A stretch of 64,000 nucleotides of DNA, taken from positions 55,180,001 to 55,244,000 of the forward strand of contig OZ024742.1 of the NCBI GenBank assembly GCA_964016885.1, read 5' to 3'. Shown here piece by piece: positions 1 through 56,342 of the stretch. Each line of letters starts with the position of its first letter. The first letter of the stretch is position 1. The notes under the pieces are model-generated. The model saw only the letters and a list, made by a program, of their open reading frames with translations. It made no database searches and had not been told where the DNA came from. The position numbers and the translations under genes were made by a program. Source of the stretch: Eledone cirrhosa. Taxonomy: Eukaryota.

Positions 1-342
1 CAATTCCAAATAAATGTTTTTCTCTATATGTTAAGAATTATTTCAAGAGTAACTTACTACTTTGAAAATTTGGAGTGTGAACAACAATTATAATTGAGTG
101 GCTGCTAGTTGCAGTATAGCAATATAAGGTTGCACTTACCAATGCAATGGTCGTAAATACCTGGATAAAATCCTTCTCTTAATGCTTACCTGTGTTTTCT
201 CTTTTATACTTTATACTCCAAGATTGAACGGAATTCTTACAAACTTGTGGAGTTACCCCTAACCGTACGTTGAAACCATCCATGAAACTGGCTTTTTTAA
301 CCAAAAACTGGATCACAATAAGCGATTTTTGGCTTCTCTAAC
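1..342 (+). mobile_element. 3' end (pLTR + ~130 nt tail) of a Penelope-like element, family B; runs into (TA)n
   Basis: 1-210 is a close copy of 38773-38985 (PLE 3' UTR); degenerate hammerhead (TTGAAAA...GCAAT instead of GAAAC); continues ~130 nt past the point where the 38985 copy ends. Confidence 0.75.
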
Positions 343-912
<570 letters not shown>

Positions 913-929
913 CGTCTGTGAATCTGTCT

Positions 930-1477
930 GTTGACACCTGGAATATAGCTTAAGAGAAACTTGAAGATAATAGTATGATAGGCACTCAATATTTTGAACT
1001 GGTCTATAGAATTCCCTAGACCTTTGTCATTCTAACTAGAACTTTAAAGAATTAGCTTTTCTTTAAATCCATCAACCATGACCGACCCCCAAAAATCTCA
1101 TAGAAACCTGAAATATAGGCATTGTTAGCTTAAGAGAAACTTAAAAATAAGGAGTGGCACTCCATTCTGAACTTGTTTATAGAATTCTTTCTGCCTTTGT
1201 TACTCTAAATATGAATAATAGCTTTAAAGAATTAGCCTTTAATGAATTCCATTTTCTATCAACCAATGACCTCTACCCATCCCACTCCCCACCCTCTCCT
1301 GCTACCGGAAGAGACCTATAAATACCATATTTATTTTTTGATACCCAGATTCCTGATGATTTCTAAAGAATGAAACAGTTCTAGTCCTGTAGAATCTCAT
1401 CTATATTAAAACTTTTATACTCTGCTATGTACCTTACTTACTGTGGTTACCTCCGATTCAACCCGGAATAACGTACG
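930..1477 (+). mobile_element. Non-coding PLE 3' remnant with ~175 bp tandem duplication and hammerhead
   Basis: 935-1105 repeated at about 1105-1270; hammerhead at 1347-1397; ends in (TA)n. Confidence 0.6.
1347..1397 (+). ncRNA. Type I hammerhead ribozyme
   Basis: AGATTC-CTGATGA-tTTCtaaaGAAt-GAAAC AG..CT GTA-GAATCT: stem I AGATTC/GAATCT, stem III ACAG/CTGT, GUA cleavage triplet. Confidence 0.8.
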
Positions 1478-1478
1478 T

Positions 1479-2493
<1,015 letters not shown>

Positions 2494-2526
2494 ATTGAAC
2501 CTTGTTTAACCTTTAAATACACACAC

Positions 2527-2667
<141 letters not shown>

Positions 2668-3017
2668 TCATATATGTGTATATTTGAAGTTTAAACAAGG
2701 TTCAATGAATAAATCAAGGAATAAAGTTTTACAATAAAGTTTTTCATGTCTCAATCTTACATTACTGCTTCAGCTGTCGCATACCACTAACATTGTGTGA
2801 TGTACATAAAGTTATTCTGTATAAATACGCCTCTGCAATGCCTATCTATTCATGGTAGACTTCAAAATATTATTACTATCGTGATGTTGATTATATTTAA
2901 TTTTGACTGTACATGACCTTCAAATATAATTACATTTCAATCGTGCTTCTCCGATATCATCCAGCGTAAACATGCGGAGATTACAAACACATACACACAC
3001 ACACACACTCGTGTATA

Positions 3018-3048
<31 letters not shown>

Positions 3049-3466
3049 ATGTACATGCATATACATATATATATATATATTTATATATGTACATGTATAT
3101 ATATATATATATATATATACATGCTTTCAGGCACTTTTCAGCTATTATATTTTGACATCGAAAAATAGTTTTCAATGAATATGGAAGAACGATTTCAACA
3201 GCAACAGACACATTATTTCACAGTTTCCGGACCTGCTGCACAGTAACTTGGACATAGAAACGTCACGTTATTCGGCAAATTTGAAAATGAGTATTGTTGC
3301 AGAGATTCCTTAATAAAACAAACCACTCGATATGTAACGCAAAACGGAAACTATCAAAGGACAAAAAAAAAAAATGAAACATAAAGAAATGAGAAAATGA
3401 AAATGATGTGAGAAGTAAGTAACAACTTGCAAAACATGAGTTAATAAAAATAAAAGTTCTGTTTTG

Positions 3467-3568
<102 letters not shown>

Positions 3569-3649
3569 TATATTAAATACATATATAGAAAGAGAAGGAG
3601 AGAGATAGAGGTAGAGTAAAACAGAAGTTTCGACGCCAATAATACACTA

Positions 3650-4529
3650 GTACTTTATCGTTCACGGAATACGAAAAGCACAATTTCTAACCAACAATCC
3701 CGTGAAGCATTTCCTTGGCCTTATTGGCTCTATTTCTTTTCTATTTAAAAACTATGATAGAGGAAACCCCACGTATACTTAAGTAGAAATAGATTTTTTT
3801 CTTTTTTCTTCATTAGTTACACACTCTAATTACATTTAGGTTGATCTTTGCATACCTACACTTATAATCAGTTTCTATTCTTCCTTAGGTTAATCCAGCA
3901 TATGTTCATACTTGTTAAATATTCATAGATCCAGCCGAACAGATAGCCATGGGTATTTTTCATTATGAAAGAAAATACTAGTGAATTACTGTATTGAGGC
4001 GCCGTTCCAGTGCATTAAAGTAACTGATAACTAAATTTTATTTATTAGGAATTTAATTAATATTAATATCTATAAGCTTTGCTATTTAGCTATAAACTTG
4101 GCATACTTACTTTCACTCTAACGACCCTTCTTGATTCTGATTTACTTTCCTACCCCCATTAGAGAGGGTTGTAAAGATTTATCTCTTAACGCCTGGGCGG
4201 TTGGCACCCACAGGTCAGAATGTCAGCTTACTCCCTGCCCGTTGTTCTATAGGCAAGTTCAGACTCCCCCTGCTGCTATGAAGGAATCTAACCATGTACA
4301 TGACATCCCCAAATCATTGACCGCCTCCTGTGACGGACAAGAAAAACCAACAAAATTTAGGATTGTTTTTGTTACTTCTGCTTTTTTTGTTTTGACTGCA
4401 TGCTCATATATGGACTGTATCTCTTGATAAGTTCAGGTAGGTCCTTGCTATCCTAATACTGCTGGGTTAGTTCGGATCTTGCTGTCGAAACGACCGGAGC
4501 TCAGCCGTCGGGGTCCCGATTCTTTTCCT
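3650..4529 (+). mobile_element. Diverged PLE 3' UTR/pLTR, related to family A
   Basis: 3' part resembles 10200-10446 and 39058-39330; same hammerhead layout; ends TTCC|(TA)n. Confidence 0.7.
4419..4514 (+). ncRNA. Hammerhead ribozyme, U3-A8 variant
   Basis: ATCTC-TTGATAA-long stem II (AGGTCC/GGATCT)-GAAAC...GAGCTC...GTC-GGGGT. Confidence 0.65.
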
Positions 4530-4935
4530 ATATATATATATATATATATTTTTTTTTTTATATTGTATATATATATATATACAGTTTCGTGCTGTAGAAA
4601 CAGGACCGTCCTTATTAGGTTTAGACTGAATGCTCTATACAAATGTTCTACACAAAAGTTCCACTGCATCAATACATAACACTTTACAAAGAAGATATGA
4701 ATAATGGTAGAACAGTAAAATTGTATAATAGATGAACGTGTTTATTCATATTGCAGCGTAAAAGTACAATTAAAAACAAACAATCCAGCCACCTCGAACG
4801 TGGGAATATGTATAATGAAAGACATGACACACGACGTAACTGCCGAACAAGTTGTGGATGTCAGGATACAAGCAATCACATTCTCCAGTGCTTATCTGTC
4901 ATAGAAGGAAATACTATATATATATATATATATAA

Positions 4936-5051
<116 letters not shown>

Positions 5052-5269
5052 GCCTGTATGAGAGAGAGAAAGAAAGAATATGTGAGTTTGATGTGTGTGT
5101 TATGTCTATTAGCGTCTGTGTATTCGGGGCATGGTAGACTTATTGCCTTCATACACCGGAAATTTATGAACGATTTAGAAAATACGGTGATCCGCCTGAC
5201 AATGCGAACTATCGTCTGAAATATATGACATCAAATAATTGTTTATATTTTTAGGCACGAGGCCAGCAA

Positions 5270-5415
5270 TTACCCAGTACATTACTGGTACTTTATTTTA
5301 TAGACCCCATTAAGGATGAAAGGCAAAGTTAACCTCCGCGGGATTTGAACTCACATCATAAAGGGACGTATGATCTGAGTTCAAATCCCGCCGAAGTTAA
5401 CTTTGCCTTTCAATG
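5270..5415. mobile_element. Two opposed fragments of a tRNA-derived SINE core
   Basis: GAGTTCAAATCCCGCCGAAGTTAACTTTGCCTTTCA (B-box + core) at 5377-5412 and its reverse complement at 5317-5352; similar to 19866-19945. Confidence 0.65.
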
Positions 5416-7228
5416 ACATCAAATAATGTAACCTGAAATATATATGAACTTGAACGTCTTTGATCATAGATATGATCTTTGATATCAATGAATACGGCCA
5501 GTAAAGTAGATCAATTATATCTCGCGGCAACGAATTGACATAATTACACATTAAAAAAAAAAAAATGTATGAAGGCAACGTGAAATAGGTTAATTCATAC
5601 TGACAAGGAAATGAGGGCGAATGTTTTTGCTGTTGACTTCAACGGACAATAGGAAATTTAATATACGGCTGTTGATGTATCAAAAGACACCAAGAAAATA
5701 AACTTGTTTCTATGTTTTCATTATTTTCCAACAGATGGTTAATTATTTTCAAACCATATGGCAGAAATATCCTTGTACAATGTTGAAATTAAGTTACTAA
5801 CAACCACGTCATCCATGCAGTCAAATACATAATGGTCACTAATTAATATTTAAATGTGTAAAACAATATAGTGTAAAGATGTGAAATTACGTCAAACTTA
5901 TTACGTAGAAAATGCACACGGAAAGAATACATTTTCACGAGACCAATGTACATATACATCAGTTTGTGTTACGAATGAACAATAGATATTGAACTAGTGA
6001 AATAAATTGAATAATAATTAATTTATAATTTAGTTTTGTTATTAAGATTATTACTATTTTTAATAATAATGGTAAATTTTGCATAGAGGAAACTGATGAG
6101 CACAGAAATATTAACTACATTATAAATACCATTAACAATACTATTTATTATATAGAAACCATATATTTTATTCATTTTTGGTTGTAAATTGAGATCATCG
6201 CAGAATATTATTGACTAGAGCATCAATAAGCTCCTTCAGATGACAGTTATTGGAATAAAATTACACCTGTAATATTCGACTAAATTATAAGGTGAATTTC
6301 TGCAGCTGCACATATTACCATATACATAATCAGAAATTAATGTCGATTCTAATGAGTGCGTTTTACCAATAGACATGTTCTAGTGATAAGTATAAAATTA
6401 TAATTATTCATCATAAAACATTTGGAGTGAATATGCCAATGAAAATTAATATATTGAGAAATGTGAAAAATTACATCTTTACAAAAGCCAGCATCAAAAA
6501 ATTCCGAAAAATGTACTTGCCAGCCTCTAATAATTTTCTAATTACATATATGAAAGTGTTCCAGTATCTAAATCACTTTTTTGTTAACAAATATTACTAC
6601 AACATATATACAATTAATTTCCATTAAACGTGTATAACAATCGATCTTACATTGTTCAATATTTTCATTAGATTTATATTACAATTGTACATAATTATAT
6701 CCAATTTTGATTAACCAAAATATATACAAACAAAGATAAATATAATTCTGCAAATACACTGAAGTGTTATTATACAAAGTGTCAATCTAGACAAATGAAA
6801 TTTCGTATCAGTATTACCATGAAGAGCAGATTGAAAATCACTGCAACACAAGTGCCATTTATTCGTCGTCCATCATTTGAAAATCTGAAATAGATAAACA
6901 TTACATTATAATAACTAAAAAAATGAAGTAAATACGATGTCGGCTATGATAGAAAATTATTTATTTAAACGTGTTTATGAGAATATAAGAAATGGACTTA
7001 TAATGAGACACACACACACAAACACACACATATCTATCTATCTATATACTACTAAAACTCTGTGTTTGCTCGCTTGTTTGTTTGTCTGTAATGTAATACA
7101 GCGAAAGGGATGCGTAATGGGAAAATACTTTGAAACGAAGTTGACTTTGAAATGGGGATACAAATGGAATAAATCAAGATTCACGTAAATCGGATATAGG
7201 TTTTTTCCGGGTACCTTCATAAATAGAG

Positions 7229-7308
<80 letters not shown>

Positions 7309-7367
7309 TTGTGAGAGAGTAGATTGAAAGAGAGACATAGAAAGAAGTAGGGGAGGCAGAAAAGAAT

Positions 7368-7405
<38 letters not shown>

Positions 7406-7433
7406 CAGAGAGAGAGAGAGATGGTGGTGTCGT

Positions 7434-7471
<38 letters not shown>

Positions 7472-7722
7472 AGTGTGTGTATATATATGTGTGTGTGTCA
7501 ATGATCAGTGTATATAGATCACAGACACCCACATACACACACACACACATTTATATATATACATACACATACGTATATATATGGGCCTTCCAGTTTCATT
7601 TCACATTATATACATGTCTGTCTATATCTTAATTATTTAAAAATTATTTTTAAGTGAACATGATTTTAAAAAAATATTTTGAACTGAACTTGACCCAACG
7701 GGACATGAGTGGTCTAGTATAT

Positions 7723-7772
<50 letters not shown>

Positions 7773-7863
7773 CGAAGGAAATGTGGTAAGGAACCAGGTG
7801 GACCATAACGCACCAAAGTACTCAATACTTGAGGTAGTAGAGTGGGTAATAGGAACCAGTAAG

Positions 7864-7957
7864 ACCCCGACAGCTGAGCTCAAGCCGTTTCGACGGCTAA
7901 TTCTGGACTAAATGAAAATTTATCCTGGTATTTAAATAGCCGATCTTCTCAAGGGGT
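7864..7957 (-). ncRNA. Hammerhead ribozyme, U3-A8 variant (mirror of 10339-10432)
   Basis: Reverse complement of the 10339-10432 motif. Confidence 0.8.
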
Positions 7958-8989
7958 AATTCCATATATGGTCAAAGTGATTGTCAAAAATCAGTAGTAA
8001 TTCTGTGGTTGCAAATTAGTAGGGGAGATGGTGGCTAAACCTGCCAGTAGGAGAAAGAGGGGAGGGGGTGGAGTAGACCCAATCAAGCGTTGGTAGTGCC
8101 AGCTACAGCTGGGCATGAGGTCAAAGAAGATACAGGGGAGGGGGAGGGGGAGGAAGTCGGAACGGTAGGTAGAACAATGGGGGGTAGAAATAGGAAAGAA
8201 AAAAAAAAAAAAAAATACTGAGAGTGAAGAAAGGCAAATAAGTGTAAAGAAAAGTAAAGTAAATTAAATTCTACGACCTAGGTGTCAGGCTATTGTTAGG
8301 CGAGAATAAAATAAAGAAAGAAAGAAAGAAGTAAAAAAATAAATAAATGAATAAATAAGGAAATAAGTAAGAGAACTAGGTGGGACGAATTAGGCAAGGA
8401 CCCTTTTAAGAGGTATAAGTACGTAAATGATACGGTGACGGGTCAACAAAAGGGGCCAAAATACTAAAGAGACTACCACGAAATAAACAATAAAGGTTTC
8501 CATCCCGGGCCAGCAACGACCCAGTGCAGCAAAGTGAACTTGTACGAGATAATAATTCTGAGTCCCGAGAAAAATATATACTAATGCTAACTCTAAAAGA
8601 TCTAAAACAAGCTACATGAAAGTTCGTACGAAATAAAGGTAGAATACGGAGAAATAAATTCAGAATCCACCCCGCCCAGAAGAAAAGCGAAGCAAGAAAT
8701 ACTGAAACGAAAAAATAAGGCATGTGCCACTAAGAAATATAGAGGGCACAGAGAATAGTGGGAGCGGTCGGAAAAAGGGGGAAAGTATCCGGGGTCTAAG
8801 CCAGCTACTATAAAGGGCGGAGTCCGCCAAATCTATCAAAGACTAGGGGAGGGGGGGTGGGGGTACTAAGGCTACATGGGGCCAAAGGGCAGCCTCGGGT
8901 GGGCGAGAAAAGACGCCGACAAAGGAGAAGAGCTGGGGTAGAAGGACAAAGGGGAGAGGGGGGAAGGAAATAAAGGAAGCGATAAAAGA

Positions 8990-9226
8990 ATATGGGACCT
9001 CAAGGACAACAACATCACCTATGATCTCACTTGGAGATTACTGTCCAGAGCCAATTCTTACACGGGAGGACGCCGTCCGTGCAATTTATGCTCGGAGGAA
9101 ACTTTACAAATGCTGTTTTCGACGGACCAACTCCTAAACAAGAAAGATGAACTGGTTACTGCATGTAAACATAGATTGCGTAGGAAATACCTCGCCCTCA
9201 AACCCCATAATGACCCGGGGGGGTAG
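8990..9226 (+). pseudogene. C-terminal fragment of PLE GIY-YIG endonuclease (not in ORF track)
   Basis: Manual translation IWDLKDNNITYDLTWRLLSRANSYTGGRRPCNLCSEETLQMLFSTDQLLNKKDELVTACKHRLRRKYLALKPHNDPGG*; W.LL..A..Y...C.LC..E...LN...E....C.H pattern. Confidence 0.85.
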
Positions 9227-10338
9227 ACTAGGGCTATAACACCCCAGTTGCCGATTTTGCAATAGGTAACCCCTGCTTGCCAAGGAAGACGTAAGATCTT
9301 CTTTGTATTCTTTTATCGCTTCCTTTATTTCCTTCCCCCCTCTCCCCTTTGTCCTTCTACCCCAGCTCTTCTCCTTTGTCGGCGTCTTTTCTCGCCCACC
9401 CGAGGCTGCCCTTTGGCCCCATGTAGCCTTAGTACCCCCACCCCCCCTCCCCTAGTCTTTGATAGATTTGGCGGACTCCGCCCTTTATAGCAGCTGGCTT
9501 AGACCCCGGATACTTTCCCCCTTTTTCCGACCGCTCCCACTATTCTCTGTGCCCTCTATATTTCTTAGTGGCACATGCCTTATTTTTTCGTTTCAGTATT
9601 TCTTGCTTCGCTTTTCTTCTGGGCGGGGTGGATTCTGAATTTATTTCTCCGTATTCTACCTTTATTTCGTACGAACTTTCATGTAGCTTGTTTTAGATCT
9701 TTTAGAGTTAGCATTAGTATATATTTTTCTCGGGACTCAGAATTATTATCTCGTACAAGTTCACTTTGCTGCACTGGGTCGTTGCTGGCCCGGGATGGAA
9801 ACCTTTATTGTTTATTTCGTGGTAGTCTCTTTAGTATTTTGGCCCCTTTTGTTGACCCGTCACCGTATCATTTACGTACTTATACCTCTTAAAAGGGTCC
9901 TTGCCTAATTCGTCCCACCTAGTTCTCTTACTTATTTCCTTATTTATTCATTTATTTATTTTTTTACTTCTTTCTTTCTTTCTTTATTTTATTCTCGCCT
10001 AACAATAGCCTGACACCTAGGTCGTAGAATTTAATTTACTTTACTTTTCTTTACACTTATTTGCCTTTCTTCACTCTCAGTATTTTTTTTTTTTTTTCTT
10101 TCCTATTTCTACCCCCCATTGTTCTACCTACCGTTCCGACTTCCTCCCCCTCCCCCTCCCCTGTATCTTCTTTGACCTCATGCCCAGCTGTAGCTGGCAC
10201 TACCAACGCTTGATTGGGTCTACTCCACCCCCACCCCTCTTTCTCCTACTGGCAGGTTTAGCCACCATCTCCCCTACTAATTTGCAACCACAGAATTACT
10301 ACTGATTTTTGACAATCACTTTGACCATATATGGAATT

Positions 10339-10432
10339 ACCCCTTGAGAAGATCGGCTATTTAAATACCAGGATAAATTTTCATTTAGTCCAGAATTAGC
10401 CGTCGAAACGGCTTGAGCTCAGCTGTCGGGGT
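10339..10432 (+). ncRNA. Hammerhead ribozyme, U3-A8 variant with extended stem II
   Basis: ACCCC-TTGAGAA-GATCGGCTA...TAGCCGTC-GAAAC GGC tTGAGCTCA GCT GTC-GGGGT. Confidence 0.82.
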
Positions 10433-10442
10433 CTTACTGGTT

Positions 10443-10531
<89 letters not shown>

Positions 10532-10584
10532 ATTAATAAAAACAATGGAATAAAAACAAAGAACAGGTTCCTTATATTGAAACA

Positions 10585-10725
10585 TTCATCATTTACGATC
10601 GTTTCTGGGATATATATGTGTGTTGGTATGTATATCATATTAAAGATCTATGTAACAAAAATTACAAATTATCAAAGGAGATATACATACCTTCACCTAT
10701 ACATGCCATCTTCAGAAATGATGAA
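10585..10725 (-). ncRNA. Hammerhead ribozyme (mirror of 11792-11936)
   Basis: TTCATCATTT-CTGAAGA...GAAACGATCGTA-AATGATGAA on minus strand. Confidence 0.72.
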
Positions 10726-11791
10726 GTATGTTTATTGAAAGAAACAAAGTATTAATATAAAAGGTCTGTAGTGGCTACGTCTAACCAATTCAAAGTAAGA
10801 TGTAATACCCACAAACATAGTTTTTAAAATGCCGCATTAGCTAATACAACCTCCTTGGTTGATGCAATTAATAATTATAGAAATAGGGATATTGATTACA
10901 ACCAGACATGGAGCGTGCTCAAAAGGGCCACCCTTTATCAAAATAGCAGATATGAGTGTAGATTATGCTCCCTAGAACTATTTGAAATCATGAAATCTAA
11001 TGATATCCTTAATTATATCATGCAATCATAGAATTAGAAAAAGCTTCAAATATTATAAACATAATTAGTATATACCTCACTTTTATATTTTACAAATCAT
11101 TATGATTAAGTAAAACATGTTTTTTTAATTTAGTTAACCTATAATTAGAAATATACTACAGAGAATTTCATAATTTTATTTCCCTCTTACAGCCCACTTT
11201 ACCTAAAGTCATCTTTAACCTCACTACTTCTTTTAACTGCACCCCCTATATATCACATTTAATACCTAGGATTATTAAATATAATTAATATCTTTAAAAC
11301 TGCTTTTTATAAAATGTTATCTATTTCAGTTTTTCTATATATATTTTTTATTTTTTTATTTTTTTACTTCTTTATTTATCACATCAGAATTAATATAATT
11401 TTAACTCTGTAAGTATACCTAACAATTAATTTAATTTCCTTTTATGTAACTAGGTTCCTTGAAATTTAAATAGGATTAGTATTTAGCACTAACACTCTCA
11501 TCCCACAAATTTCTTTCCCTTCGCTTTTAACAGTATGTTTTAATAACATCAAATTTTTGGGGGAGTCCTTCACTATCTTCTGGATTTGACCTCATTTTAA
11601 CCCCTATCTGTCTGTTCCCCATTCTATTCTTTTCATTCAAAGCATAAATGTACACTCCTCCCCTCCTAACATAAAATTCTACTACCGTAATTCTATCAAC
11701 TTGACCTCTAACTCTTTTCTATTGGTCAATTCAAAACCTGTTCCCAAACAGGCTTTTTATATTACTACTTTGTTTCTTTCAATAAACATAC

Positions 11792-11936
11792 TTCATCATT
11801 TCTGAAGACGGCATGTATAGGTGAAGGTATGTATATATATATCCTCTGATAATTTGTAATTTTTTTACATAGATCTTTAACATGATATACATCCCAACAC
11901 ACATATATATCCCTGAAACGATCGTAAAATGATGAA
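11792..11936 (+). ncRNA. Hammerhead ribozyme with ~105 nt domain II
   Basis: Stem I TTCATCATTT/AAATGATGAA (10 bp), CTGAAGA, GAAAC GATC GTA (palindromic ACGATCGT). Confidence 0.78.
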
Positions 11937-12128
11937 TTTTTCAATATAAGGAACCTGTTCTTTGTTTTTATTTCATTGTTTTTATTAATTTATCTTGACT
12001 CTGTTTTCCTATCATTTTTATCGTTAATTTTTTAAAGCATTTTCTCTTTTCATGATATCTTCTATATTTGGATTACATTGAGTTCTTCATACGGATTGGA
12101 CGCTACCGTTTATTTTGGAAGATTTATA

Positions 12129-12179
<51 letters not shown>

Positions 12180-12387
12180 TTGCGTATAATGGTAGCTATG
12201 GTGCTTCCATAGGCGGTATGCCAAAATTAGCACTCAATATTCATACAGAGTAGAGTGTGGATAGTATAAAAAAACGAAAAATCAGTGATACATCTGGACT
12301 CAGTTTATTGCGTGTTACAATTGTTTCACCGGCAGGTAGCTCGATATATATATATACATAGTATATATATAATATATATAATATATA

Positions 12388-12591
12388 TAAACAACTATCT
12401 GGTTGTGGAACCAACCAACCAACCAGAAATTTATAAATTTGTAAATTTATAAATATTTAATAAATTAAATTGAAGTGAAAGCAACTGGTGCGTGTGTTTC
12501 TTATTGGCAACATGACCCTCCCAAAGTATAACAATATCGGTTTCAACACACGATTTCAGATAAAGAATCTTGCTAAACAAATTCAGAAACG

Positions 12592-12594
<3 letters not shown>
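12388..12594 (+). mobile_element. Family D PLE terminal fragment + 57 nt tail
   Basis: 12388-12537 is the reverse complement of about 1585-1715; extends 12538-12594 then (TA)n. Confidence 0.85.
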
Positions 12595-12679
<85 letters not shown>

Positions 12680-12963
12680 ATATATATATGTATATATATG
12701 TGTGTGTGTGTGTATATATACAAATATAAATTAGCGAGAATCGTATTTCGGCTATTGGAAATTAGCGAAAAACAACTTCCATTTTGTGTGGTAAGTGCTC
12801 AATGAATTCTAACGAACCAGAGCTACAACATACGTTAAAGGGCCAAACACACTGAGACGATGGTTAAACCATTATCCGCACAGCCATAGAAACGACCAAG
12901 TAATTCGTGTCAAACAAATAAGAAAATGTGATTATATATATAGAGATATGTATATGTATATAT

Positions 12964-13045
<82 letters not shown>

Positions 13046-13074
13046 ATGTATATATATATATATATATATACATG

Positions 13075-13157
<83 letters not shown>

Positions 13158-13174
13158 CTATATATATACATATC

Positions 13175-13949
<775 letters not shown>

Positions 13950-13998
13950 TTTTATTTATATGTATATAAATAAATAAATATATATATATATATATATA

Positions 13999-14045
13999 TT
14001 TCGTTTCTGAATTATTGGCAACATGACCGTCCCAAAGTATAACAA
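13999..14045. mobile_element. 47 bp two-ended family D mini-insertion
   Basis: TTTCGTTTCTGAATT (reverse complement of tail tip 12580-12594) joined to ATTGGCAACATGACCGTCCCAAAGTATAACAA (terminus, cf. 12503-12534), TA on both sides. Confidence 0.85.
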
Positions 14046-14059
14046 TATATATATATATA

Positions 14060-14605
<546 letters not shown>

Positions 14606-14826
14606 AATATGAGATAATTATTTCATTTACCAAAGGTCTCACGAAGACAGACGACACCCTGACACAGACGTCTGACTTCGGTCGTCAGAAACTCGAAGTT
14701 AGCCGTCTGTGTCAAGCTCGTAATGAAATACTTATCTTATGTTGTTTATCACAAAACTAAAAAGCTCTCTAGCCTACATAGAGCACTCTCTTTTCCTTTA
14801 CCTTTCCTACGGAAACACTTCATATG

Positions 14827-14892
<66 letters not shown>

Positions 14893-14995
14893 GTGTTTCC
14901 GTAGGAAAGGTAAAGGGAGAGAGAGAGAGAGGTAGAACACTGGAAGGTAATATCCGTAGTGGTAGAGCACTCAGTCCATGGGACGAGTTAGGCAG

Positions 14996-15088
<93 letters not shown>

Positions 15089-15095
15089 CATATAC

Positions 15096-15251
15096 AGGGG
15101 CTGGCTTATTAAGAACTTTCAATGTTTATTTTAGGTTTTGTCGCCTGAGGAACTCGGGCTATCTTAACTAATAGTCGTCAGTGAAATATGTATAACGGAA
15201 TATTATATAAAGCTGACCTAACTGAATATGGCCTCCGATCTTTTCTTAATA
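15096..15251 (+). mobile_element. ~155 bp hammerhead-bearing mini-element in (TA)n
   Basis: CTGAGGA-ACTcgGGCTAT..ATAGTCgtcAGT-GAAATATGTATA at 15145-15194; TATTAAGAA (15107) inverts terminal TTCTTAATA (15243). Confidence 0.65.
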
Positions 15252-16399
15252 TATACATATATATATATGTATGTGTGAGTGTGTGTGCGTGTGTGTGTGT
15301 ATAACGCTTGATATAGTAGGGAAATGTCTTTACATTTCGAACACTATTCCTTTATGAGAAGATCGAATGAGATGTATTAGATGAAATAGAGAGTAAAAGG
15401 AAGGAACAGAAATAAATTATTTGGAGAAAAAACGCGTGCGTGTTTGTATGTGTGTATGTGTGTGTACGTGTGTGCGTGTGTGTGTATTTGTGTGTGTATG
15501 TGTATTTGGGTGTGTGTGTGCGTGTGTGTATATGTGTGTGTGTGTGAGTGTGTGTGTGTGTGGGGGGGGGGGGTGCATGTCCTATTCACAGAAAGTGTAC
15601 ATATACATATATTTGCTTTTATCTGTAAGCAACGTATAGAAAATAGCATTGATCTGAGAGGTTTAGACGGACAGACATATGAATAAATAGACATAATATT
15701 GTGAGTTTACTAGAAATACGAGATCGATATTTACAAAATGAGACGATTGGGCGTGATTCATATTATATAATTAATTATCTATATCATTATACAACACAGC
15801 AATTCATTCATTAGTATGTATGTTGGGTTATCCAATGAAAACATCGCAGCCGCCTTAGGCTCGTTGCAATCTTAAACAGCAACAGCGTCGGTTGGTGTCG
15901 AAGTTGTGTACGTCCTTCACAACAGACAATGAACACGAAGTGTTGTGCTTCAAGCCATTATGATTTCATCCGCAGAAAGTCTCAGTAGGAACAGTCCAAG
16001 TGTCCAAAGTTAAGATATAGGAGAAATTTGTAGTTAAGCTAGAAATTGACCAGATGAGCCAAAAATATATTCTATCTACTATGTGTATCTATGAGTGTGT
16101 GTGTGTGTGTATGTGTCTGTATATTGTATGTCTCTGTGTGTGTATGTGTGTCTATGTCTGTGTGTGTCTGTATGTGTCTTTGTATGTCTGTGTCTGTGTA
16201 AAATATATTATATCTAAACATCAGATTAATTTGTAATGAGAAATCACCATACACGCCAGCTATCAGGAATGCGCCTGAGAGGTGCATATTGCGAGGTAGT
16301 GAGAATAATTTGCTGAGGTACACGAGGTGTATCAGAAAGCGAGAGATTACCTATCGGAGGTTTAGATCACCAGAACAATTAGAGCGCTCAAATATGGCA

Positions 16400-16990
16400 G
16401 GATATCTGGGGAGAAAGAAATTCACCCCGAGATTTTAAAAGAGATAAATAAAGCGTTGCATCGTCTGTCTCGTGTATGCCGGGTGGACTCCTGAAATATA
16501 CTTAAGCAATATAAAATCGCGAGTAATGATCCCAATAATCAAAAAGCGGGACGAGAAAAAGTGATCCAATTTTAGTGGGACATTCTTCTTAAGTTTCCAC
16601 GATTATCTCTATGATAAGAGTCTGACAGAAGGATGTGGGTGTATTGTTGATTCCAAGCTAGCTGAGTAACATTTTGGTTTTCAGCATTTACACATCAGAA
16701 TAAAGGAGGTAAGTTTAAAAGCCAAACTCTCTTTCTTCTGCTGGGTATTCGTGCCAACCCTTACCTATGGTCATGGATAATGACCGAAAAAATTCAATCG
16801 AAGGAACTTTGATTTATCGTTACTCGATTGCGTGCATGGCTCGGAGATCAGGCTCTCGTTCCAGATAATGCTGCTATGCCTCTGAATTGAAAGATAACAG
16901 CTTCGATACTATGGACATTCATTCAGAATGCATAAGGAAAGAATTGTTGGACTAAATGTGTTGATAACATTCATGGGCTCGGCTGATGTT
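16400..16990 (+). mobile_element. Degraded RTE-like LINE fragment
   Basis: Remnants VFVPTLTYGH and QLRYYGH...RM..ER; followed by (GAA)n. Confidence 0.6.
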
Positions 16991-17035
16991 TTGAGAAGAA
17001 GAAGAAGAAGAAGAAGAAGAAGAAGAAGAAGAAGA

Positions 17036-17176
17036 TTCTCCACCCCAAATAATGATTTGAACATTAACTTTATTAATACTCCTGATGAGGCGATGAGTAG
17101 TTAATTGAGTAATCGGAATTATCGATTATCGACTACGCCTCGTTACTGAAACATTTGTAGAAAAATAAAAAATAAA
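17036..17176 (+). mobile_element. Hammerhead mini-element between (GAA)n and (TTC)n
   Basis: TC-CTGATGA(17082)-GGCGATGAG...CTCGTTACT-GAAAC ATTT GTA-GA; flanked by (GAA)n 16995-17035 and (TTC)n 17177-17249. Confidence 0.75.
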
Positions 17177-17335
17177 TCTTCTTCTTCTTCTTCTTCTTCT
17201 TCTTCTTCTTCTTCTTCTTCTTCTTCTTCTTCTTCTTCTTCTTCTTCTTTATGTTCATACAGTGAACAAAGGCGCTACCCAAGGTTTCAATGTACAAATA
17301 TGACCATACCTCCAGAAACAATAGGCATCAATATA

Positions 17336-17450
<115 letters not shown>

Positions 17451-18134
17451 AGAGAGAGAGAAATAAATATAGAGGAAAAGAGAGGGATGTGTTTAGGTTT
17501 GTTAGCTCTCAGTAGTAGAATCTGCTCGACGGTGAAAATATAATATTTTTTTTATATTAATCCTTTACTTCTCTTGTGCTACAGTATTGGAGTGAGGGCG
17601 GTTACATGCACTTTAACATATTAATTAAAAACTTGTTTCTCTATTTCAAACTAGTATTATTACTAAATTTATATTTGAAATATGTACACAACTAAAAAAC
17701 ATCATTAGATGAGAGAAGGAAGCATATACAATCATTTACTTCACAACAAAGACAATTAAACCCACTCTCCTATAACTTTTGATCGTTTTCCTCCACAATG
17801 ATATAATATTCATGTTGTTAATTGAATTTTGAATAATTTAATCACATAGATATATAACAACATAGATGGTCCACTATAATTTAATATTTTATTCAAACAA
17901 GTTATTTCAACATTCATGCATATAGCACCCATATACATAGCCTTGATCACTTATACTAGTATTTATGTGTGTGTATGGGTTCTTACTTTATCATTGCAAT
18001 TGATCTAAGAAAGTTTACGTTAATTAATCAAATTATATAGATGTAAATTTGTATCAAGCGCCGCCTTCTTGATCTAGAAAGCTGATTTTTTGTAAATTTG
18101 CAGAACCCAATTATGTATTCCCATCTTATTATGT

Positions 18135-20904: not shown

Positions 20905-22460
20905 TTAAATCTGAACCGGGACAAGTCGATCGGTCTGCAACTCGGCACGTGGAGGGGCAGATCGATGCCCTCCGATGGCGTCGACGGGCGCTGAACGGAG
21001 GGCCCGGTGAAGTTGCTCGGGGTCTGGTTCGGACCAGACCTCCAGGTGGAGAAGAACTGGGGTGAGGTAACGAACAGGGTGTTTGCACTGACCCAGAAGT
21101 GGGCCGAGTGCAAACTGTCCCGGAAAGGTCGGGCGGAGGTGGCGAACACTTATGTAGCGTCCGTCATCTACTACCGCCTGACCGTTGTGCCTTGCCCAGG
21201 GGAAACGCTCGCCAAAATGGAGCGCGCACTCTTCCAATTCCTTTGGAAGAAGCGGGCTCCTATGGTGAGGAGATCCATCTGCTGTCAACACCCTTCGAAA
21301 GGAGGGCTGGGGATGCCGTGGCTAATGATACGTAAACACGCATTAAGGCTACGGCACCTTCAGTTATTCCTCTCCGGTCAACCGGTGTGGGTCCCGTTTG
21401 TGAGGCGAGCCTTTCCCAGACTCGTCTCACTCACCGAGCTGCAATCCTGGGTCAAGCAAAGACCGAGAAAACTGGGCGCCTGGCAAACCGAGTGTGCCCA
21501 GGCGCTCACGGCTCTCTGGCAGGCGGACCCGGCTGTCAGTGGAGAATCCACCTCGTCATTCTATAGAGGGCTGGTGGTTAGCAGGTGCGACGACGCCCTC
21601 GGAGAAGCCCTAGGCATGGAGGAAGACGAACTGGCCAACCTGTTCGGTAGAACATTCAGCCCGGGACCCATGGATAACTTCCAGAGGTACCTGGCCTGGC
21701 AATGCTACAGAAGGGCTCTGCCCGTTCGAGAAAGGCTCTACAGACACGGGCGCCCGGGTAGGGACCCATCGAAAAAGATCTGTCCCAGATGCGTGTGCGA
21801 CGAGGAAACCGTTGCACACGCATTGGTACACTGCTCGGGCATTGCTGATCTGTGGGGCTATGTCGAACAACTGCTGTCAAGGGTGGGACCGATCCGGTTA
21901 ACCACTGAGTCTATTGTAACGATCAAGCCGCCTCCCCTCTTCAAAAACGAAGAAGAGGCGGTGTTTCTGTGCGTAATAGCCATGGCGAAAGAGGTTGTAT
22001 GGTGGGCACGTTTGAAAGGACTGAGGTCAGACACCTTTCTCTCTGGCCAACAACTGGTCCGTTTCTTCCGATATAATTTCGGAAGAAGGATCAGGATGGA
22101 GAGAGAGGTGCTGCACCCCAGTCGTTTTTATGAAAGATGGGTGAAAGTGGCGAGAATGGCCCGTGTGAATGGGCCTTCACTCTACATCAGACTATAGGTG
22201 AGGAAGTTGAAAGACCAAGGGAGCACCCCTTCTCTGTGCTCCTGAGGAGAAGATTTGCACACTTTTTTCCAGGAGTGTGTGCGACCCCCCAAGGCGCCTC
22301 CTCTCTATTGAGGACTTTGTTATAAATTTTATTTTTTGTTATATTTTATTTTATTTTTATATATTGTTATTGCCTCCTCCTTATTGAAGACGCCTTGTTT
22401 TGTAAACTGCCCCCATTGTACTTGTCCCACTTTTGATGCCCTGGTGGCAAATAAAAGAAA
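20905..22460 (+). mobile_element. 5'-truncated Tx1/L1-clade LINE (RT C-terminus, CCHC knuckle, 3' UTR)
   Basis: ORF 21007-22197: KLLGVWF, LSRKGR, GGLGMP, CPRC..EETVAHALVHC; in-frame TGA near 20992; GC-rich island; AATAAA + A-rich end at ~22450. Confidence 0.9.
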
Positions 22461-24557: not shown

Positions 24558-25289
24558 GTTAAACGGAATCAAAATCTGCCGCTATTCCCAGCGAAACAGA
24601 TTATGTCTGCAGTGTGATTGTCATTTCACCCATCATCCGAGGACTGTCGCACAAATAAAAATAAATATAGAAATCCTAACCAATATAAACCTCAGAATTA
24701 CAGTCACTTACAGTTCCCTAAACATGAAACCTATTTTTTAGCCATAATGAATCTGGCAAAAGAACTACAAAAAAAAAAACACATTCTATCCATCACGCAG
24801 CACCAGCCTCCACGACTACCTCACTTCACAAACTCCCATTGCTGCCATTAACAAACAAACCCCCCAAAAGAGTTAAAATCAACCACCACTCTACCATCAA
24901 CATATGTGCTTAATGCTAAAGGCATTGGGTTGATGACCATCCTAACCACAAGTGGAGGGGATTGGAATGGGTTACGGTGAAGACGAAGAAAGGATTCTTC
25001 GTCTTCACCGTAACCCATCCCAATCCCCTCCACTTGGAAGCCGAGGTGAAAAGGAAGAATTTCAAAGCTCTCTGTGCAGCTTGCACTGGTAAAAGAAAGG
25101 GTAGGACTGACATTTTTGCACATGATTCTTTTTCGACAGGGACTAAGAACATATTTTCCAGTGGGTACTGTGAAGCAGTCGCTGTGTACAATAAAACCAA
25201 CAACTCTATAGGCCACACCAAACGCCTCTACCATGCTTCAAGGAATGCCTCAACAAGATAATGTGTTTCATCTAATAGTGTCACCCTGG

Positions 25290-29226: not shown

Positions 29227-29647
29227 CACACATACATACCTGTCACTTAATTTACACACAGATCGGCCTTACACTTTCATACACACATACATACAAATAC
29301 CTGTCACTTAATTTACACACACATCGGCCTTACACTTTCAAACTAAATTTGTATGTAGAAGTAACTTTAACCCTTTCTTTTCAACATAAAAATACACACA
29401 TACATACAAATACCTGTAAATTTGTTTTTAGGGCCTTTCTTATCAATCTTTTTACATTCAATTATCAGCCTTATACTTTCAAAGTCAATTTTTATGTTGG
29501 AGTAACTTTCACCCTTTATTTGTCGATACGCATTTACTTACTAACATTTGTATCACAACAACAATAACAATATTCATAAACAGACAGTAGACTTTCAAAG
29601 TCAATTTTTCTGTAGAAGTAACTCTCACCCTTTCTTTTGGACATAAA

Positions 29648-30390
29648 ATGCCACCTAAAAAGAGAAGTCGCCTCAGTCGACATACCGCGTCAGCAGTGGC
29701 GCAAAAGGCTACTATAGCAAACGAGTCCTCTGAGGAAAATGATTCAAGACTTTCACAGACAGCCTTACGTTCAGCAGAATGTCGAGCCGCTGAAAGTTTC
29801 CAACAGCGCACCGCACGCCTAGCCAAATTGGCTTCATACCAGGCTTCTTCCAGGGCTTCAGAGAGCCGTGAACAAAGGTCGACGCGCCTGGCTAGAAACG
29901 ATGCGACTAATACTGCTTCCAGGTCTTTGGAACGTTTAAAACAACGGACGGCTCACCTTCCTACGAACGCTGCGGCTATGACTACTTCCATGGCTTCTGA
30001 AGATGCAGACGGGCGGTCCATTAGCATTGCAAATGTTGCTTCTGCTATTGCTGCCAGACCTTCCCACCAACCACACGACCAATGTTCTACGTTCAAGCGT
30101 AACAGTCGACGGCGAGAAGCTGCACGCGGTGTGACGAGCCCCAACAGCCCTTACTGGCACCTACGGGTTTTCAAGTATGAGCAAAACGTTAGTTACTCGA
30201 TGCGCTCTGACATAAATATAGGCGAGATGCGCTTCAATTGCCAATTCTGCAATGCTACAAAGTGGGCTACGGAGCCACCTGCAATGTGCTGCTTAAACGG
30301 TAAGGTCACCTTGCCCCCTCTTACGGAACCGCCAGAGCCTTTGAAGGAATTACTGACTGGTTATACCTCAAGGTCAAAAACAAAAAAAAC
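29648..30390 (+). pseudogene. Helitron RepHel N-terminus (helical repeats + Zn finger)
   Basis: MPPKKRSRL, R..RLA repeats, IGEM..CQFCNATKW..EP..MCCLNGKVTLPPL..PPEPLKELL. Confidence 0.85.
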
Positions 30391-30419
30391 CTTATCCCCC
30401 CCCCCCCCCCCCCCCAATA

Positions 30420-31670
30420 AAAAACGCTCCTGGGGGTACCGGAAAAATGTTGTAACGAATTTGATTCTCGCTAAGATTCGTCAGGAGAAAAAAAGTTGCG
30501 TTGTCCGTTGCATCGTCCGGGATCGCTGCTACTTTGCTGCCGGGAGGCAGGACAGCACATTCAACCTTTAAACTCCCCTTGGATTTAGTAAAAACTGAGA
30601 CACCAACATGCAATATCAGCAAGAGTTCACACAAATCTCTGGTTCTCAAAAGATGTTGCCTCATTGTTTCGGATGAGTGCACAATGGCACACAAGGGTGC
30701 CCTTGAGGCATTGGACAGGTCCCTAAAGACATTAGGGATTCTACGGCTCCTATGGGTGGCGTAACACTTCTGCTATCAGGGGATTTTCGGAAAACGCTGC
30801 CTGTCATCCCCAAAGGGACAAGAACTGATGAAGTGCGTGCCTGTCTTAAGTCGTCCATGTTGTAGCTCCGGGTGAATAGTTTGTACCTGAGCACAAATAT
30901 GCGTGCTCATTTGCATGGTGACAACATGTCTGCAGCACAGAACATTTTACCACTTGGTGAGGGCAAGATCCCTGCGGATGACAAGGGCGGCATAGCAATC
31001 GACACCCTGTGCAACATTGTGAGCAGCCCTTCTGACCTTTGGGAAGCAGTTTTTCCTAATGTCTCATCTAACTTTAAAAACCTCGATTGGCTCAGCGAAA
31101 GAGCCATCCCTGCTCCGAAAAATACCATGGTTAATTTTATTAACGAGCAGCTGATTGAGAAGATTCCCGGTAAAGAGCACATCTTCAAATCAGACCCCGA
31201 CGATATCGTTAATTATCCGGTTGAGTTATTAAATCTCCTTGAGCCCCCAGGGCTCCCACCTCACATTATTAAGCTTAGGGTTGGCTGTCCCATTATGCTA
31301 ATAAGGCACTTGCGTCCACCAAAGCAGTGCAACGGTACTCGCATGGTCGTCAAGTCACTGACACCCACTTGATTGAGGCCACCATTGTAACGGGGTGCGG
31401 AAGAGGGGAGAATGTTTTCATTCCAAGGCGTCAGATATCCCGTTCGATTTCCGGCGATCCCACTTCCCGGTGAGACCATGTTTTGCCATGTTTTGCCATG
31501 ACAAGTCACAAGAGCAAACATTGTCGGTGGCGGGCATCCATTTGAGGGAGTCATGCTTCTCCCATGGCCAACTTTATGTTGCCTGTTCCCGCGCAGGGAG
31601 CAGGAATGGACTTGTTGCTTACTCTCCTCAAGGGATGACACGCAATATCGTCTACAAAGAGGTGCTATAG
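30420..31670 (+). pseudogene. Helitron PIF1-like SF1 helicase, frameshifted
   Basis: APGGTGK, VASSGIAATLLPGGRTAHSTFKLP, DECTM, GDFR, LPPH.LKLRVG..IML.R.L...CNGTR, CFSHGQLYVACSR. Confidence 0.9.
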
Positions 31671-32431: not shown

Positions 32432-32840
32432 GGAAAAAAAAGAAACGAAATTTCATTTTCCACTCTTAGTACGGCTGTTACTTAAATATAAGTATGTACA
32501 CATACATATATGTATACAGACGTACAGTAGTATGTATATATATATACACACATGCACACATATATATATATATATGTACGTATGGATTTACCGAACATTT
32601 ATTATAATGCTCGGTGTGTTTGTAAACAAACACCCCGTATTACCTTTGTCAGTGTTGAACCAACGAGCAACGATGGTTGCTAGACACTACGGCTTAATAT
32701 GGGATGTTTGTTTACAAACACACCGAGCATTATAATAAATGTTCGGTGAATCCATACGTACATATATATATGTGTGCATGTACGTATATATATACATACT
32801 ACTGTACGTCTGTATACATATAGGTATGTATGTGTACATA

Positions 32841-32845
<5 letters not shown>
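32428..32845. mobile_element. Fold-back element in (TA)n, ~150 bp arms, ~60 nt tail
   Basis: 32490-32642 inverts 32695-32843; extra 32428-32489; TA both sides. Confidence 0.7.
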
Positions 32846-35706: not shown

Positions 35707-35710
35707 ATAT

Positions 35711-36773
35711 ATAGTTTTGCGAGGTTTTTTATATGAAATCGTGTGTCGAAACAAATATTGTTATACTTGAGGAGGGTCATATTTGTGTAATAATATTGCC
35801 AGAATTAATAACAGAACACACTCACTGTGAGGTTGGTTTTCGCTTCTGTGTCTTATATATCGGTTAATTTAATTTATTCGGTCCTCAATGTTACCATTGA
35901 CTGACCAACGGTCAAAAACACAGATACAATATAGACACAAACACATATATATGGTCTAACAAAGTTCTTTCGTTACATATCTCCATCATCGTCAGTAGTG
36001 CTATTATGTTTCCCCCCCGTTGCATTGTATGCCTACGCCATCTTTATTTAGTCTGTTTATTTATTTATTTATTTGTTTATTTTTTTGTCTTCTCTGCGCA
36101 TGCATTTGCGTGTGTGTATAGTGTTTTGTTTGATGTGTGTTCGTGTTTGGGTGACTGTGTATTGGTTATTGTATTCTATCTTAGTTTACTTGTGTGTGTT
36201 TATATGTGTGTGCATGTATTTATTTATTTATTTATTTATTTATATTGAATAACAACAACACCCAAACAAACAATACTGATCTAAGAGAAGTATAAATAAA
36301 TAAATAAATAAATACATACACAAGCACAATAACAACAAACACATATAAACACACACTAGTAAACTAAGATAGAATACAATAACCAATACACAGTCACCCA
36401 ATCACGAACACACATCAAACAAAACATGCGCAGAGAAGACAAAAAAATAAACAAATAAATAAATAAATAAACAGACTAAATAAAGATGGCGGAGGCATAC
36501 AATGCAACGGGAGGAAACATAATAGCACCACTGACGATGTTGTTGCAGATGTGCAACGAAAGAACTTTGTTAGACTATATATATGTGTTTGCGTCTATAT
36601 TGTATCTGTATTTTTGACCGTTGGTCAGTCAATGGTAACATTGAGGACCGAATAAATTAAATTAACCGATATAAAAGACACAGAAGCGAAAACCAACCAA
36701 ACAATGAGTGTGTTCTGTTATTAATTCTGGCAATATTATTACAAAAATATGACCCTCCTCAAATATAACAATA
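35711..36773. mobile_element. Fold-back PLE remnant, family D' (~480 bp arms, 44 nt tail)
   Basis: 35755-~36250 inverts ~36290-36773; terminus ATGACCCTC...TATAACAA as family D; hammerhead-like CTGACGA..GAAAGAACTT at 36531-36567 (+) and 35956-35999 (-). Confidence 0.85.

Positions 36774-38985: not shown

Positions 38986-39057
<72 letters not shown>

Positions 39058-39058
<1 letters not shown>

Positions 39059-40122: not shown

Positions 40123-40126
<4 letters not shown>
39058..40126 (-). mobile_element. 5'-truncated PLE, sister subfamily of family A
   Basis: 39950-40126 matches 9045-9235 (RANSYTGGR...LCSEETLQMLF...TACKH); decayed hammerhead 39071-39169; ends CC|(TA)n. Confidence 0.88.
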
Positions 40127-40220
<94 letters not shown>

Positions 40221-53430: not shown

Positions 53431-53795
53431 ATTAGAAAGTGAGGTTTTTTTTACATAATGAAAAATAACCGAGGTGTCCTACCCGAGTGAAAGTATAAAG
53501 AAAAAGAGATGAAATCGAAAATGCAACTGGTGTCTTATTTTTTTTTTCTTAAATATATATATTTATTTGGTTCCTTTACCGGTTTCGCAGTTCTTCTGCT
53601 TTTCAAAAGGTGAGTTGAGATGGAGGGTCTGTGGTTTTTCTCACATCTGATGTGAGAAAAACCACAGACCCTCCATCTCAACTCACCTTTTGAAAAGCAG
53701 AAGAACTGCGAAACCGGTAAAGGAACCAAATAAATATATATATTTAAGAAAAAAAAAATAAGACTCCAGTTGCATTTTCGATTTCATCGCTTTTT

Positions 53796-54473: not shown

Positions 54474-54521
<48 letters not shown>

Positions 54522-54594
54522 AACACACATACATATATACATACATACATATATACATACATATATTTGTACGTATGTGTATGCACTTAATTTG

Positions 54595-56286: not shown

Positions 56287-56342
56287 TATATATATATATG
56301 TATGCCTGTATTTATATATCTATATATATATATATCTATATC

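What the first reader, a model, noticed from the sequence alone, without database searches (positions are those of the whole stretch)
16995..17249. Hammerhead element flanked by inverted trinucleotide tracts (GAA)n...(TTC)n
(TA)n hides polarity, but here the repeat is asymmetric and the two flanks are reverse complements, so they cannot be a simple split or duplicated target. Either (TTC)n is attached to each outward-facing 3' end, or one tract is an inverted copy of the upstream RTE (GAA)n tail. The first option is speculative: repeat addition by a PLE RT, which is an established relative of telomerase RT. Either way, retro-insertion would be creating new microsatellite.
Basis: partly seen in the sequence, partly recalled or inferred. 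Interest (0 to 1): 0.7.

Follow-up and report, generated by a model that had tools for sequence, protein, structure and literature searches.

The report
Penelope-element end with nested GAA tails
The two mirror-image GAA/TTC repeats and the hammerhead motif between them are real, but they likely do not bracket a new element: the left repeat is likely the tail of a LINE retrotransposon, and the right one likely sits inside an ordinary Penelope-like element end as an inverted copy of that tail, so I see no sign of telomerase-like repeat addition.

Summary
(AGA)14 at 16994-17035 and (TCT)24 at 17177-17249 are perfect, are the window's only trinucleotide tracts of 5 or more units, and enclose a Penelope-type (PLE) minimal hammerhead.

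The reading of them as flanks of a 141-nt element is not supported. Diverged relatives in public runs of a species that holds this stretch continue into non-repeat sequence on both sides. The left edge is a sense-strand 5' break. The 89 nt right of the TTC tract look like the rest of the same PLE end (ATG, terminus, then (AT)39), as in other PLE ends in this window.

The left tract follows a Rex3/RTE-type LINE. A second such LINE in the window also ends in (GAA)n, with the same GAAGA|TT junction as both tracts.

Best model: a PLE end inserted in (TA)n, an RTE tail joined to its 5' side, and an internal inverted copy of that tail, most likely from fold-back template switching plus slippage. A second, tail-only RTE insertion is the close rival. 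Repeat addition by a PLE reverse transcriptase is about 5%. No whole genome was available, so this is a single locus. Interest is low.

The parts
16333..16990 (+). Degenerate Rex3/RTE-type LINE fragment with internal deletions; homology stops about 100 nt before the normal ORF end
   Evidence: 93 of 94 phmmer relatives align by tblastn in 16505-16990, 10 reach 16333; C-terminal HMM E 8e-10; 149 of 227 aligned letters identical to the second copy at 44927-45300, minus strand. The family label is recalled from the C-terminal motif and fits the Rex3 3' end described in PMC6274825; Pfam gave 0 families for it.
16994..17035 (+). (GAA)14 tract, likely the RTE 3' tail, ending GAAGA|TT
   Evidence: the second RTE copy ends in stop, 6 nt, (GAA)3GA|TT.
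17034..17176 (+). 5' part of a PLE pseudo-LTR fragment, broken at its 5' side; 2-3 nt (GA/GAT) shared with the end of the GAA tract
   Evidence: Relatives align over 17055-17099 and 17110-17176 at about 80-91%; in-register similarity reaches 17034.
17074..17167 (+). Minimal type I hammerhead: core 17082-17088 and 17148-17151, cleavage site after 17159, 59-nt stem II region, short near-palindromic stem III, weakened stem I
   Evidence: relatives read T at 17163, which restores one stem I pair. Activity not tested.
17177..17249 (-). (GAA)24 on the minus strand, (TTC)24 on plus; likely internal to the PLE end; ends GAAGA|TT on minus; no target-site duplication of 4 nt or more found
17250..17338 (+). 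Likely 3' part of the same PLE end: ATG at 17300 (MTIPPETIGIN), then the terminus
   Evidence: 26 of 32 letters match the PLE end at 35756-35786 (blastn E 0.079; 11 of 3000 background windows); one of 7 window hits of a shared ATG-terminus motif; weak continuity with 1 of 3 relatives.
17339..17417 (.). (AT)39 microsatellite, likely the PLE target, followed by (AG)22 to 17461
   Evidence: 4 of the 6 other motif hits also meet (TA)n within 82 nt of the ATG; (TA)n targeting is reported for Hydra and Naiad PLEs in PMC8557442.

Best explanation
This is likely a nested pile-up of two known retroelement ends: a hammerhead-bearing Penelope-like element end (17034-17338) that likely inserted into (TA)n, a Rex3/RTE LINE whose likely (GAA)n tail is joined to its 5' side, and a (TTC)24 tract that is likely internal to that end and probably arose as an inverted copy of the neighbouring tail by fold-back template switching. 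Steps: (1) PLE target-primed reverse transcription left a 5'-broken pseudo-LTR ending at (AT)39 (inferred from architecture). (2) The RTE tail and the PLE fragment were joined at a GA/GAT microhomology; the order of the two insertions is unknown (inferred). (3) A nascent top strand ending AAT at 17175-17177 folded back on ATT at 17035-17037, copied the GAA tract as CTT repeats, then returned to its template (inferred, not shown). (4) Slippage set the present lengths of 14 and 24 (inferred). The anatomy (steps 1-2, tract internal) I put at about 0.7; the fold-back origin of the right tract is the weakest step.
For: Relatives continue in non-repeat sequence on both sides and none runs into a tract: 6 contig pieces (5 distinct) and 26 + 29 RAD reads of one further-sampled copy, all partial. 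Left continuity 158 of 20000. The right flank resembles the window's other PLE ends. Of the 6 other such ends, 2 were flagged with a hammerhead 125 and 191 nt before the ATG and a third shows it by eye; here the distance is 152 nt, or 79 without the tract. RTE homology stops 8 nt before the left tract and the second RTE copy has a (GAA)n tail. All three tails end GAAGA|TT. The arms pair 2 nt into the core, giving the 3-nt primer. No RTE body and no target duplication at the right tract. Intramolecular template switching between inverted arms is an established mechanism (PMC8604942, passages).
Against: Continuity across the TTC tract is weak: 26 of 1500 anchored (293 of 5000 unanchored) for one relative and no support from the other two (671 and 268 of 1500). 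The left RTE lacks its last ~100 nt, so its tail must have been joined by a deletion. No upstream half of the PLE and no target duplication was found near the RTE 5' end. A 3-nt primer with a 137-nt loop is longer-range than the yeast cases read (spacers up to 70). Nothing beyond the GAA tract was copied, so there is no unique-sequence proof of an inverted copy. Of 8 nearby same-class dinucleotide tract pairs in the window only 1 is inverted. The ATG-terminus motif was chosen after seeing the match. No record at 95% or more covers the locus.
Confidence: 0.45

Rival explanations
1. Same anatomy, but the right tract is a second, tail-only RTE insertion on the opposite strand: both DNA 3' ends of the 141-bp core primed reverse transcription on (GAA)n-tailed RTE RNA, in one coupled event or two close ones.
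For: Same GAAGA|TT junction as the genuine RTE tail at 44929-44939. RTE insertions create microsatellites (PMC2887409, abstract and Discussion). Priming of both strands on a tail is proposed for L1 (PMC2837659, part 1 of 6).
Against: No target-site duplication, where 6-12 bp is usual for RTE. No RTE body. L1 twin and dual priming give tails pointing outwards inside a duplication; here they point inwards at a single-copy core.
Confidence: 0.25
2. The right tract grew independently by replication slippage from a short T-rich proto-repeat in the PLE pseudo-LTR; the inverted pairing is coincidence.
For: The genome is very microsatellite-rich. Two of three relatives are T-rich right after the AATAAA.
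Against: Only 2 AAG-class tracts in 64 kb, about 0.5% chance of this proximity; shared junction phase.
Confidence: 0.12
3. The right flank is the 3' end of an unrelated minus-strand LINE or SINE whose tail is the (GAA)24; two tails converge on the hammerhead fragment.
For: Junction phase fits a tail. Other RTE subgroups and RTE-tailed SINEs could not be searched.
Against: A Rex3-type C-terminal HMM from 57 segments gives best E of about 3 in all six frames; no DNA match to the second RTE's 3' end (257 and 290 of 300 shuffles score as well). The flank fits a plus-strand PLE end better.
Confidence: 0.07
4. A PLE reverse transcriptase added or stuttered the trinucleotide repeat, telomerase-style.
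For: PLE RTs are the sister group of telomerase RTs (PMC8557442). In strand geometry each 3' end of the core is followed by (TTC)n.
Against: The left edge is a 5' break next to an RTE with a GAA tail. The element's real 3' end meets (TA)n. 0 of 3 relatives carry TTC at this place. No GAAGA template in the core. The one PLE studied in vitro showed internal initiation, with no repeat addition in the parts I read (PMC11167929, parts 1-2 of 4).
Confidence: 0.05
5. Assembly artefact: one or both junctions are chimeric joins across GAA repeats.
For: No read or contig confirmed either junction; the holders have only 0.53-0.60 of the stretch's words.
Against: Both sides of the TTC tract fit one PLE end in the expected order.
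Confidence: 0.04

Closest known systems
Minimal type I hammerheads in pseudo-LTRs of metazoan Penelope-like elements (Cervera and De la Pena 2014, PMC4209133)
   Same: Intact core, long stem II, short stem I, small near-palindromic stem III, found as a solitary motif in a truncated copy
   Different: Stem II region is 59 nt; stem III has a central T-T mismatch; stem I is weakened; the pseudo-LTR is interrupted by (TTC)24
Hydra-clade and other (TA)n-targeting PLEs (Craig et al. 2021, PMC8557442)
   Same: Hammerhead, then ATG, then terminus at (TA)n; the most similar terminus in the window precedes an ORF with the DKT motif
   Different: No ORF beyond 13 codons here, so no clade assignment; similarity to that terminus is only 26 of 32 letters
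Rex3/RTE LINEs with microsatellite tails (PMC6274825; Tay et al. 2010, PMC2887409)
   Same: Stop codon, a few bases, then GAA repeats; each insertion adds microsatellite
   Different: Left copy lacks the last ~100 nt before the tail; a second, inverted tract lies 141 nt downstream without a body
L1 inverted poly(T) tails from twin or dual priming (Meyer et al. 2010, PMC2837659)
   Same: An inverted copy of a LINE tail near a LINE insertion
   Different: There the tails point outwards and lie inside a target duplication at the 5' end; here they point inwards, downstream of the tail, with no duplication
Polymerase template switching at inverted repeats (PMC8604942)
   Same: Short microhomology, fold-back copy, return to the template, giving perfect inverted arms
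   Different: Longer loop (137 nt) and a microsatellite as the copied arm

Membership tests
PLE minimal hammerhead | Core CUGANGA, GAAA and UH cleavage site in type I order | tested here: met
PLE minimal hammerhead | Stem II of 6-8 bp or more with a G-C pair at its base | tested here: met
   8 of 9 pairs, G-U then G-C at the base
PLE minimal hammerhead | Short stem III with palindromic loop | tested here: inconclusive
   3 pairs around TT; one letter off a perfect palindrome
PLE minimal hammerhead | Stem I of 4-5 bp | tested here: not met
   2 contiguous pairs then 2 mismatches in this copy; relatives restore one pair. Read as a decayed copy
PLE minimal hammerhead | Self-cleavage, usually as a dimer | not testable with these tools
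   Hammerhead fold -9.3 against -22.2 kcal/mol for the best fold; the hammerhead at 60558 shows a similar gap, so this does not discriminate
Penelope-like element | Linked PLE RT and GIY-YIG ORF | not testable with these tools
   No ORF at this locus and no genome held; PLE ORFs occur elsewhere in the window
Penelope-like element | Pseudo-LTR with hammerhead upstream of the ORF start, terminus shortly inside the ORF | tested here: met
   described for PAc in PMC11167929. Rests on weak similarity of the right flank
Penelope-like element | Dispersed family of diverged copies | tested here: met
   5 distinct partial pieces at about 80-91%; single copy in the window
Non-LTR retrozyme | Tandem units each with a type I hammerhead | tested here: not met
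   One motif, no tandem unit; definition from bioRxiv 10.64898/2026.07.22.740005, part 1
Rex3/RTE LINE (left flank) | RT C-terminal domain homology | tested here: met
   the hit library has no names, the label is recalled
Rex3/RTE LINE (left flank) | GAA tail a few bases after the stop codon | tested here: inconclusive
   Met in the copy at 44929-44948; in this copy ~100 nt including the stop are missing
Rex3/RTE LINE (left flank) | 6-12 bp target-site duplication | tested here: not met
   Best match 5 nt in 15900-16400; the copy is old and its 5' end uncertain
Telomerase-like repeat addition | Internal RNA template of more than one repeat unit, and repeats at the primed 3' end of most copies | tested here: not met
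   No GAAGA in the core (direct reading); 0 of 3 relatives with TTC; 3' end meets (TA)n

The most novel reading that the evidence does not exclude
The PLE reverse transcriptase, a relative of telomerase, stuttered on a short UCUU stretch just after the hammerhead in its own RNA and wrote (GAA)n into the cDNA, so PLE insertion itself would create new trinucleotide microsatellites by reiterative synthesis. Copies carrying such tracts could be hidden from my read search by its filter.
Probability: 0.05. Interest if true: 0.7.

Novelty: new member of a known kind. Interest (0 to 1): 0.2.

Why it matters
As read here it is a small example of how LINE tails seed microsatellites and how a nearby inverted copy can appear, making a 44-bp inverted repeat around a decayed ribozyme. 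It would matter more if inverted orphan tails proved to be a regular by-product of RTE insertion (a new integration signature), and much more if a PLE reverse transcriptase were shown to add repeats, which would link PLEs and telomerase functionally. The evidence here does not point to the latter.

Tried and rejected
The core has no second copy in the window. A 26-letter core pattern found 0 matches in metagenome contigs. Only 4 of 23 listed runs were laid (X18, X19, X21, X22), on 17021-17191 only, so empty alleles and tract lengths were not tested. Rfam microRNA matches come from the GAA/TTC arms and are far below gathering score. A 14-of-16 likeness between the sequences downstream of the two RTE tails is background (135 of 3000). 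A guessed RTE C-terminus in the minus-strand right flank was not supported. Two other (GAA)3 runs in the window (39850, 37851) do not end GAAGA|TT. A strict hammerhead scan missed known sites and was dropped. Supplement 1 of PMC9115989 was a variant table with no element sequence; its other supplements (two too large) and that of PMC13282606 were not read and might hold RTE or PLE consensus ends that would settle the right flank. Look-ups of earlier findings by place and sequence were empty. Paper searches listed no report of repeat addition by an endonuclease-bearing PLE or of inverted RTE tails; the library covers open-licence PMC and bioRxiv only.

Full report
Observation. The window is from an animal genome crowded with microsatellites and retroelement ends. 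A repeat at 5228-5412 reminds me of an octopod SINE; that label is recalled and untested. The two tracts are as described: AGA x14 at 16994-17035 and TCT x24.3 at 17177-17249, both pure. They are the only trinucleotide tracts of 5 or more units, and random placement would put them this close about 0.5% of the time. Between them lies a type I hammerhead: core at 17082-17088 and 17148-17151, cleavage after 17159. Stem II has 8 of 9 basal pairs, stem III 3 pairs, stem I only 2 contiguous pairs. A descriptor with these features finds 4 sites in the window and 0.01 on average in 100 shuffles. Rfam does not score it. It fits the minimal hammerheads of metazoan PLEs (PMC4209133, parts 1-2 of 4 read) and looks decayed. 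Activity was not tested.

Other copies. No genome is held and the core is single-copy in the window. Three runs of one sample hold 0.53-0.60 of the words of 16200-17338, and three RAD runs share its species label. I laid 4 of the 23 listed runs on 17021-17191 at 80% likeness. Six contig pieces (5 distinct) and 26 + 29 reads aligned, all partially, none at 95% or more, and none ran into either tract. The reads repeat one of the contig pieces. All 3 distinct pieces that reach 17169-17176 continue with 58-205 letters of non-repeat sequence. The piece starting at 17056 continues upstream with non-repeat sequence; 4 loose ends were not shown. The tool drops human-like records, so copies with GAA tracts, this locus included, may be invisible.

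The left edge is a 5' break. The relative's upstream letters match 17034-17048 in register at 11 of 15, all four differences C/T; 158 of 20000 background windows score as well in register (666 of 5000 without the register constraint). So the left part is sense-strand element, not an inverted tail, and it shares GA(T) with the end of the tract.

The left tract is likely a LINE tail. The upstream frame, read with X at stops, found 94 relatives; 93 align in 16505-16990. Their C-termini are of the Rex3/RTE type (label recalled; Pfam gave none). A second copy on the minus strand keeps its ORF end: stop at 44948-44946, 6 nt, then (GAA)3GA|TT, as described for Rex3 (PMC6274825, passages). RTE tails are known to create microsatellites (PMC2887409, abstract and Discussion). 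Against: the left copy stops 8 nt before its tract where the second copy has 111 nt, and no target duplication was found. Of five (GAA)3+ runs in the window, three end GAAGA|TT: the RTE tail and both tracts of the finding.

The right tract is likely internal. The flank 17250-17338 is not a Rex3-type end on either strand. It matches the PLE end at 35756-35786 at 26 of 32 (E 0.079; 11 of 3000 background). An ATG-terminus motif drawn from that match occurs 7 times in the window; 4 of the other 6 meet (TA)n within 82 nt, and this one meets (AT)39 after 39 nt. Two of the six were flagged with a hammerhead 125 and 191 nt before the ATG, a third shows it by eye, and three are cut short; here the distance is 79 nt without the tract. 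This order, hammerhead then ATG then terminus, is what PMC11167929 (parts 1-2 of 4) describes, and (TA)n targeting is reported in PMC8557442 (passages and section 11). Direct continuity across the tract is weak: one relative scores 26 of 1500 anchored, the other two 671 and 268 of 1500.

Mechanism. The tracts are probably linked, and the left one has a source. The inverted arms pair 2 nt into the core, so a nascent top strand ending AAT at 17177 could fold back on ATT at 17035-17037, copy the tract as CTT repeats and return. That predicts the shared junction, no RTE body and no duplication, all as seen. Such switching is established (PMC8604942, passages), though for shorter loops. No unique sequence was copied, so it is not proven (0.45 for the whole model). 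A tail-only second RTE insertion predicts the same junction but usually a duplication (0.25); the L1 precedent has the opposite geometry (PMC2837659, part 1 of 6). Independent slippage (0.12), an unrelated minus-strand element (0.07), PLE repeat addition (0.05) and misassembly (0.04) follow.

Repeat addition. But the element's 3' end is at (TA)n, the left tract has a LINE source, 0 of 3 relatives carry TTC, and the core has no GAAGA template. Searches of open-licence PMC and bioRxiv listed no report of repeat addition by an endonuclease-bearing PLE.

Other papers seen: PMC9115989 (passages, supplement list, part 1 of one supplement), PMC13282606 (part 1 of 3, supplement list), PMC3124438 (passages), bioRxiv 10.64898/2026.07.22.740005 (part 1 of 5). 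Unread supplements may hold consensus ends that bear on the right flank.

Verdict. Real feature, known parts, one unexplained local inversion at a single locus. New member of a known kind; interest 0.2.

Noticed in passing
window 7849-10447: Inverted repeat of about 1.14 kb at 99.6% identity with a 313-nt spacer, between (AT)20 and (TA)42; looks like a young PLE with inverted ends; related ends at 39056-39182 and 56150-56298.
   Followed up: no
window 60454-60654: Near-perfect 201-nt palindrome with two head-to-head hammerheads; only the right arm ends directly in (TA)24.
   Followed up: partly
window 34357-36773: PLE with the DKT motif described for the Hydra clade and inverted pseudo-LTRs (35756-36212 / 36336-36773) holding a hammerhead about 190 nt before the ATG.
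   Followed up: partly
window 10531-10769 and 11748-11990: Inverted pair of PLE-type ends with hammerheads whose stem II region is about 105 nt; one arm ends in (TA)42.
   Followed up: partly
window 44927-46113, minus strand: Second degenerate Rex3/RTE LINE with its ORF end and a short GAA tail.
   Followed up: yes
window 61966-63867, minus strand: PLE ORF in two pieces with RT and GIY-YIG domains and a DKG motif.
   Followed up: no
window 53498-53798, 24949-25036, 32490-32843, 5317-5412: Further palindromes or fold-back structures; fold-back copying seems common in this region.
   Followed up: no
window 40125-40237: Compound (CT)18 (AT)19 (AG)n tract, the only inverted dinucleotide pair among 8 nearby pairs.
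   Followed up: partly
window 29591-31372: Open frames that resemble Helitron Rep/helicase pieces (recalled resemblance).
   Followed up: no
window 20995-22197 and 54382-55380: LINE fragments of another type; the first has a zf-RVT domain.
   Followed up: no
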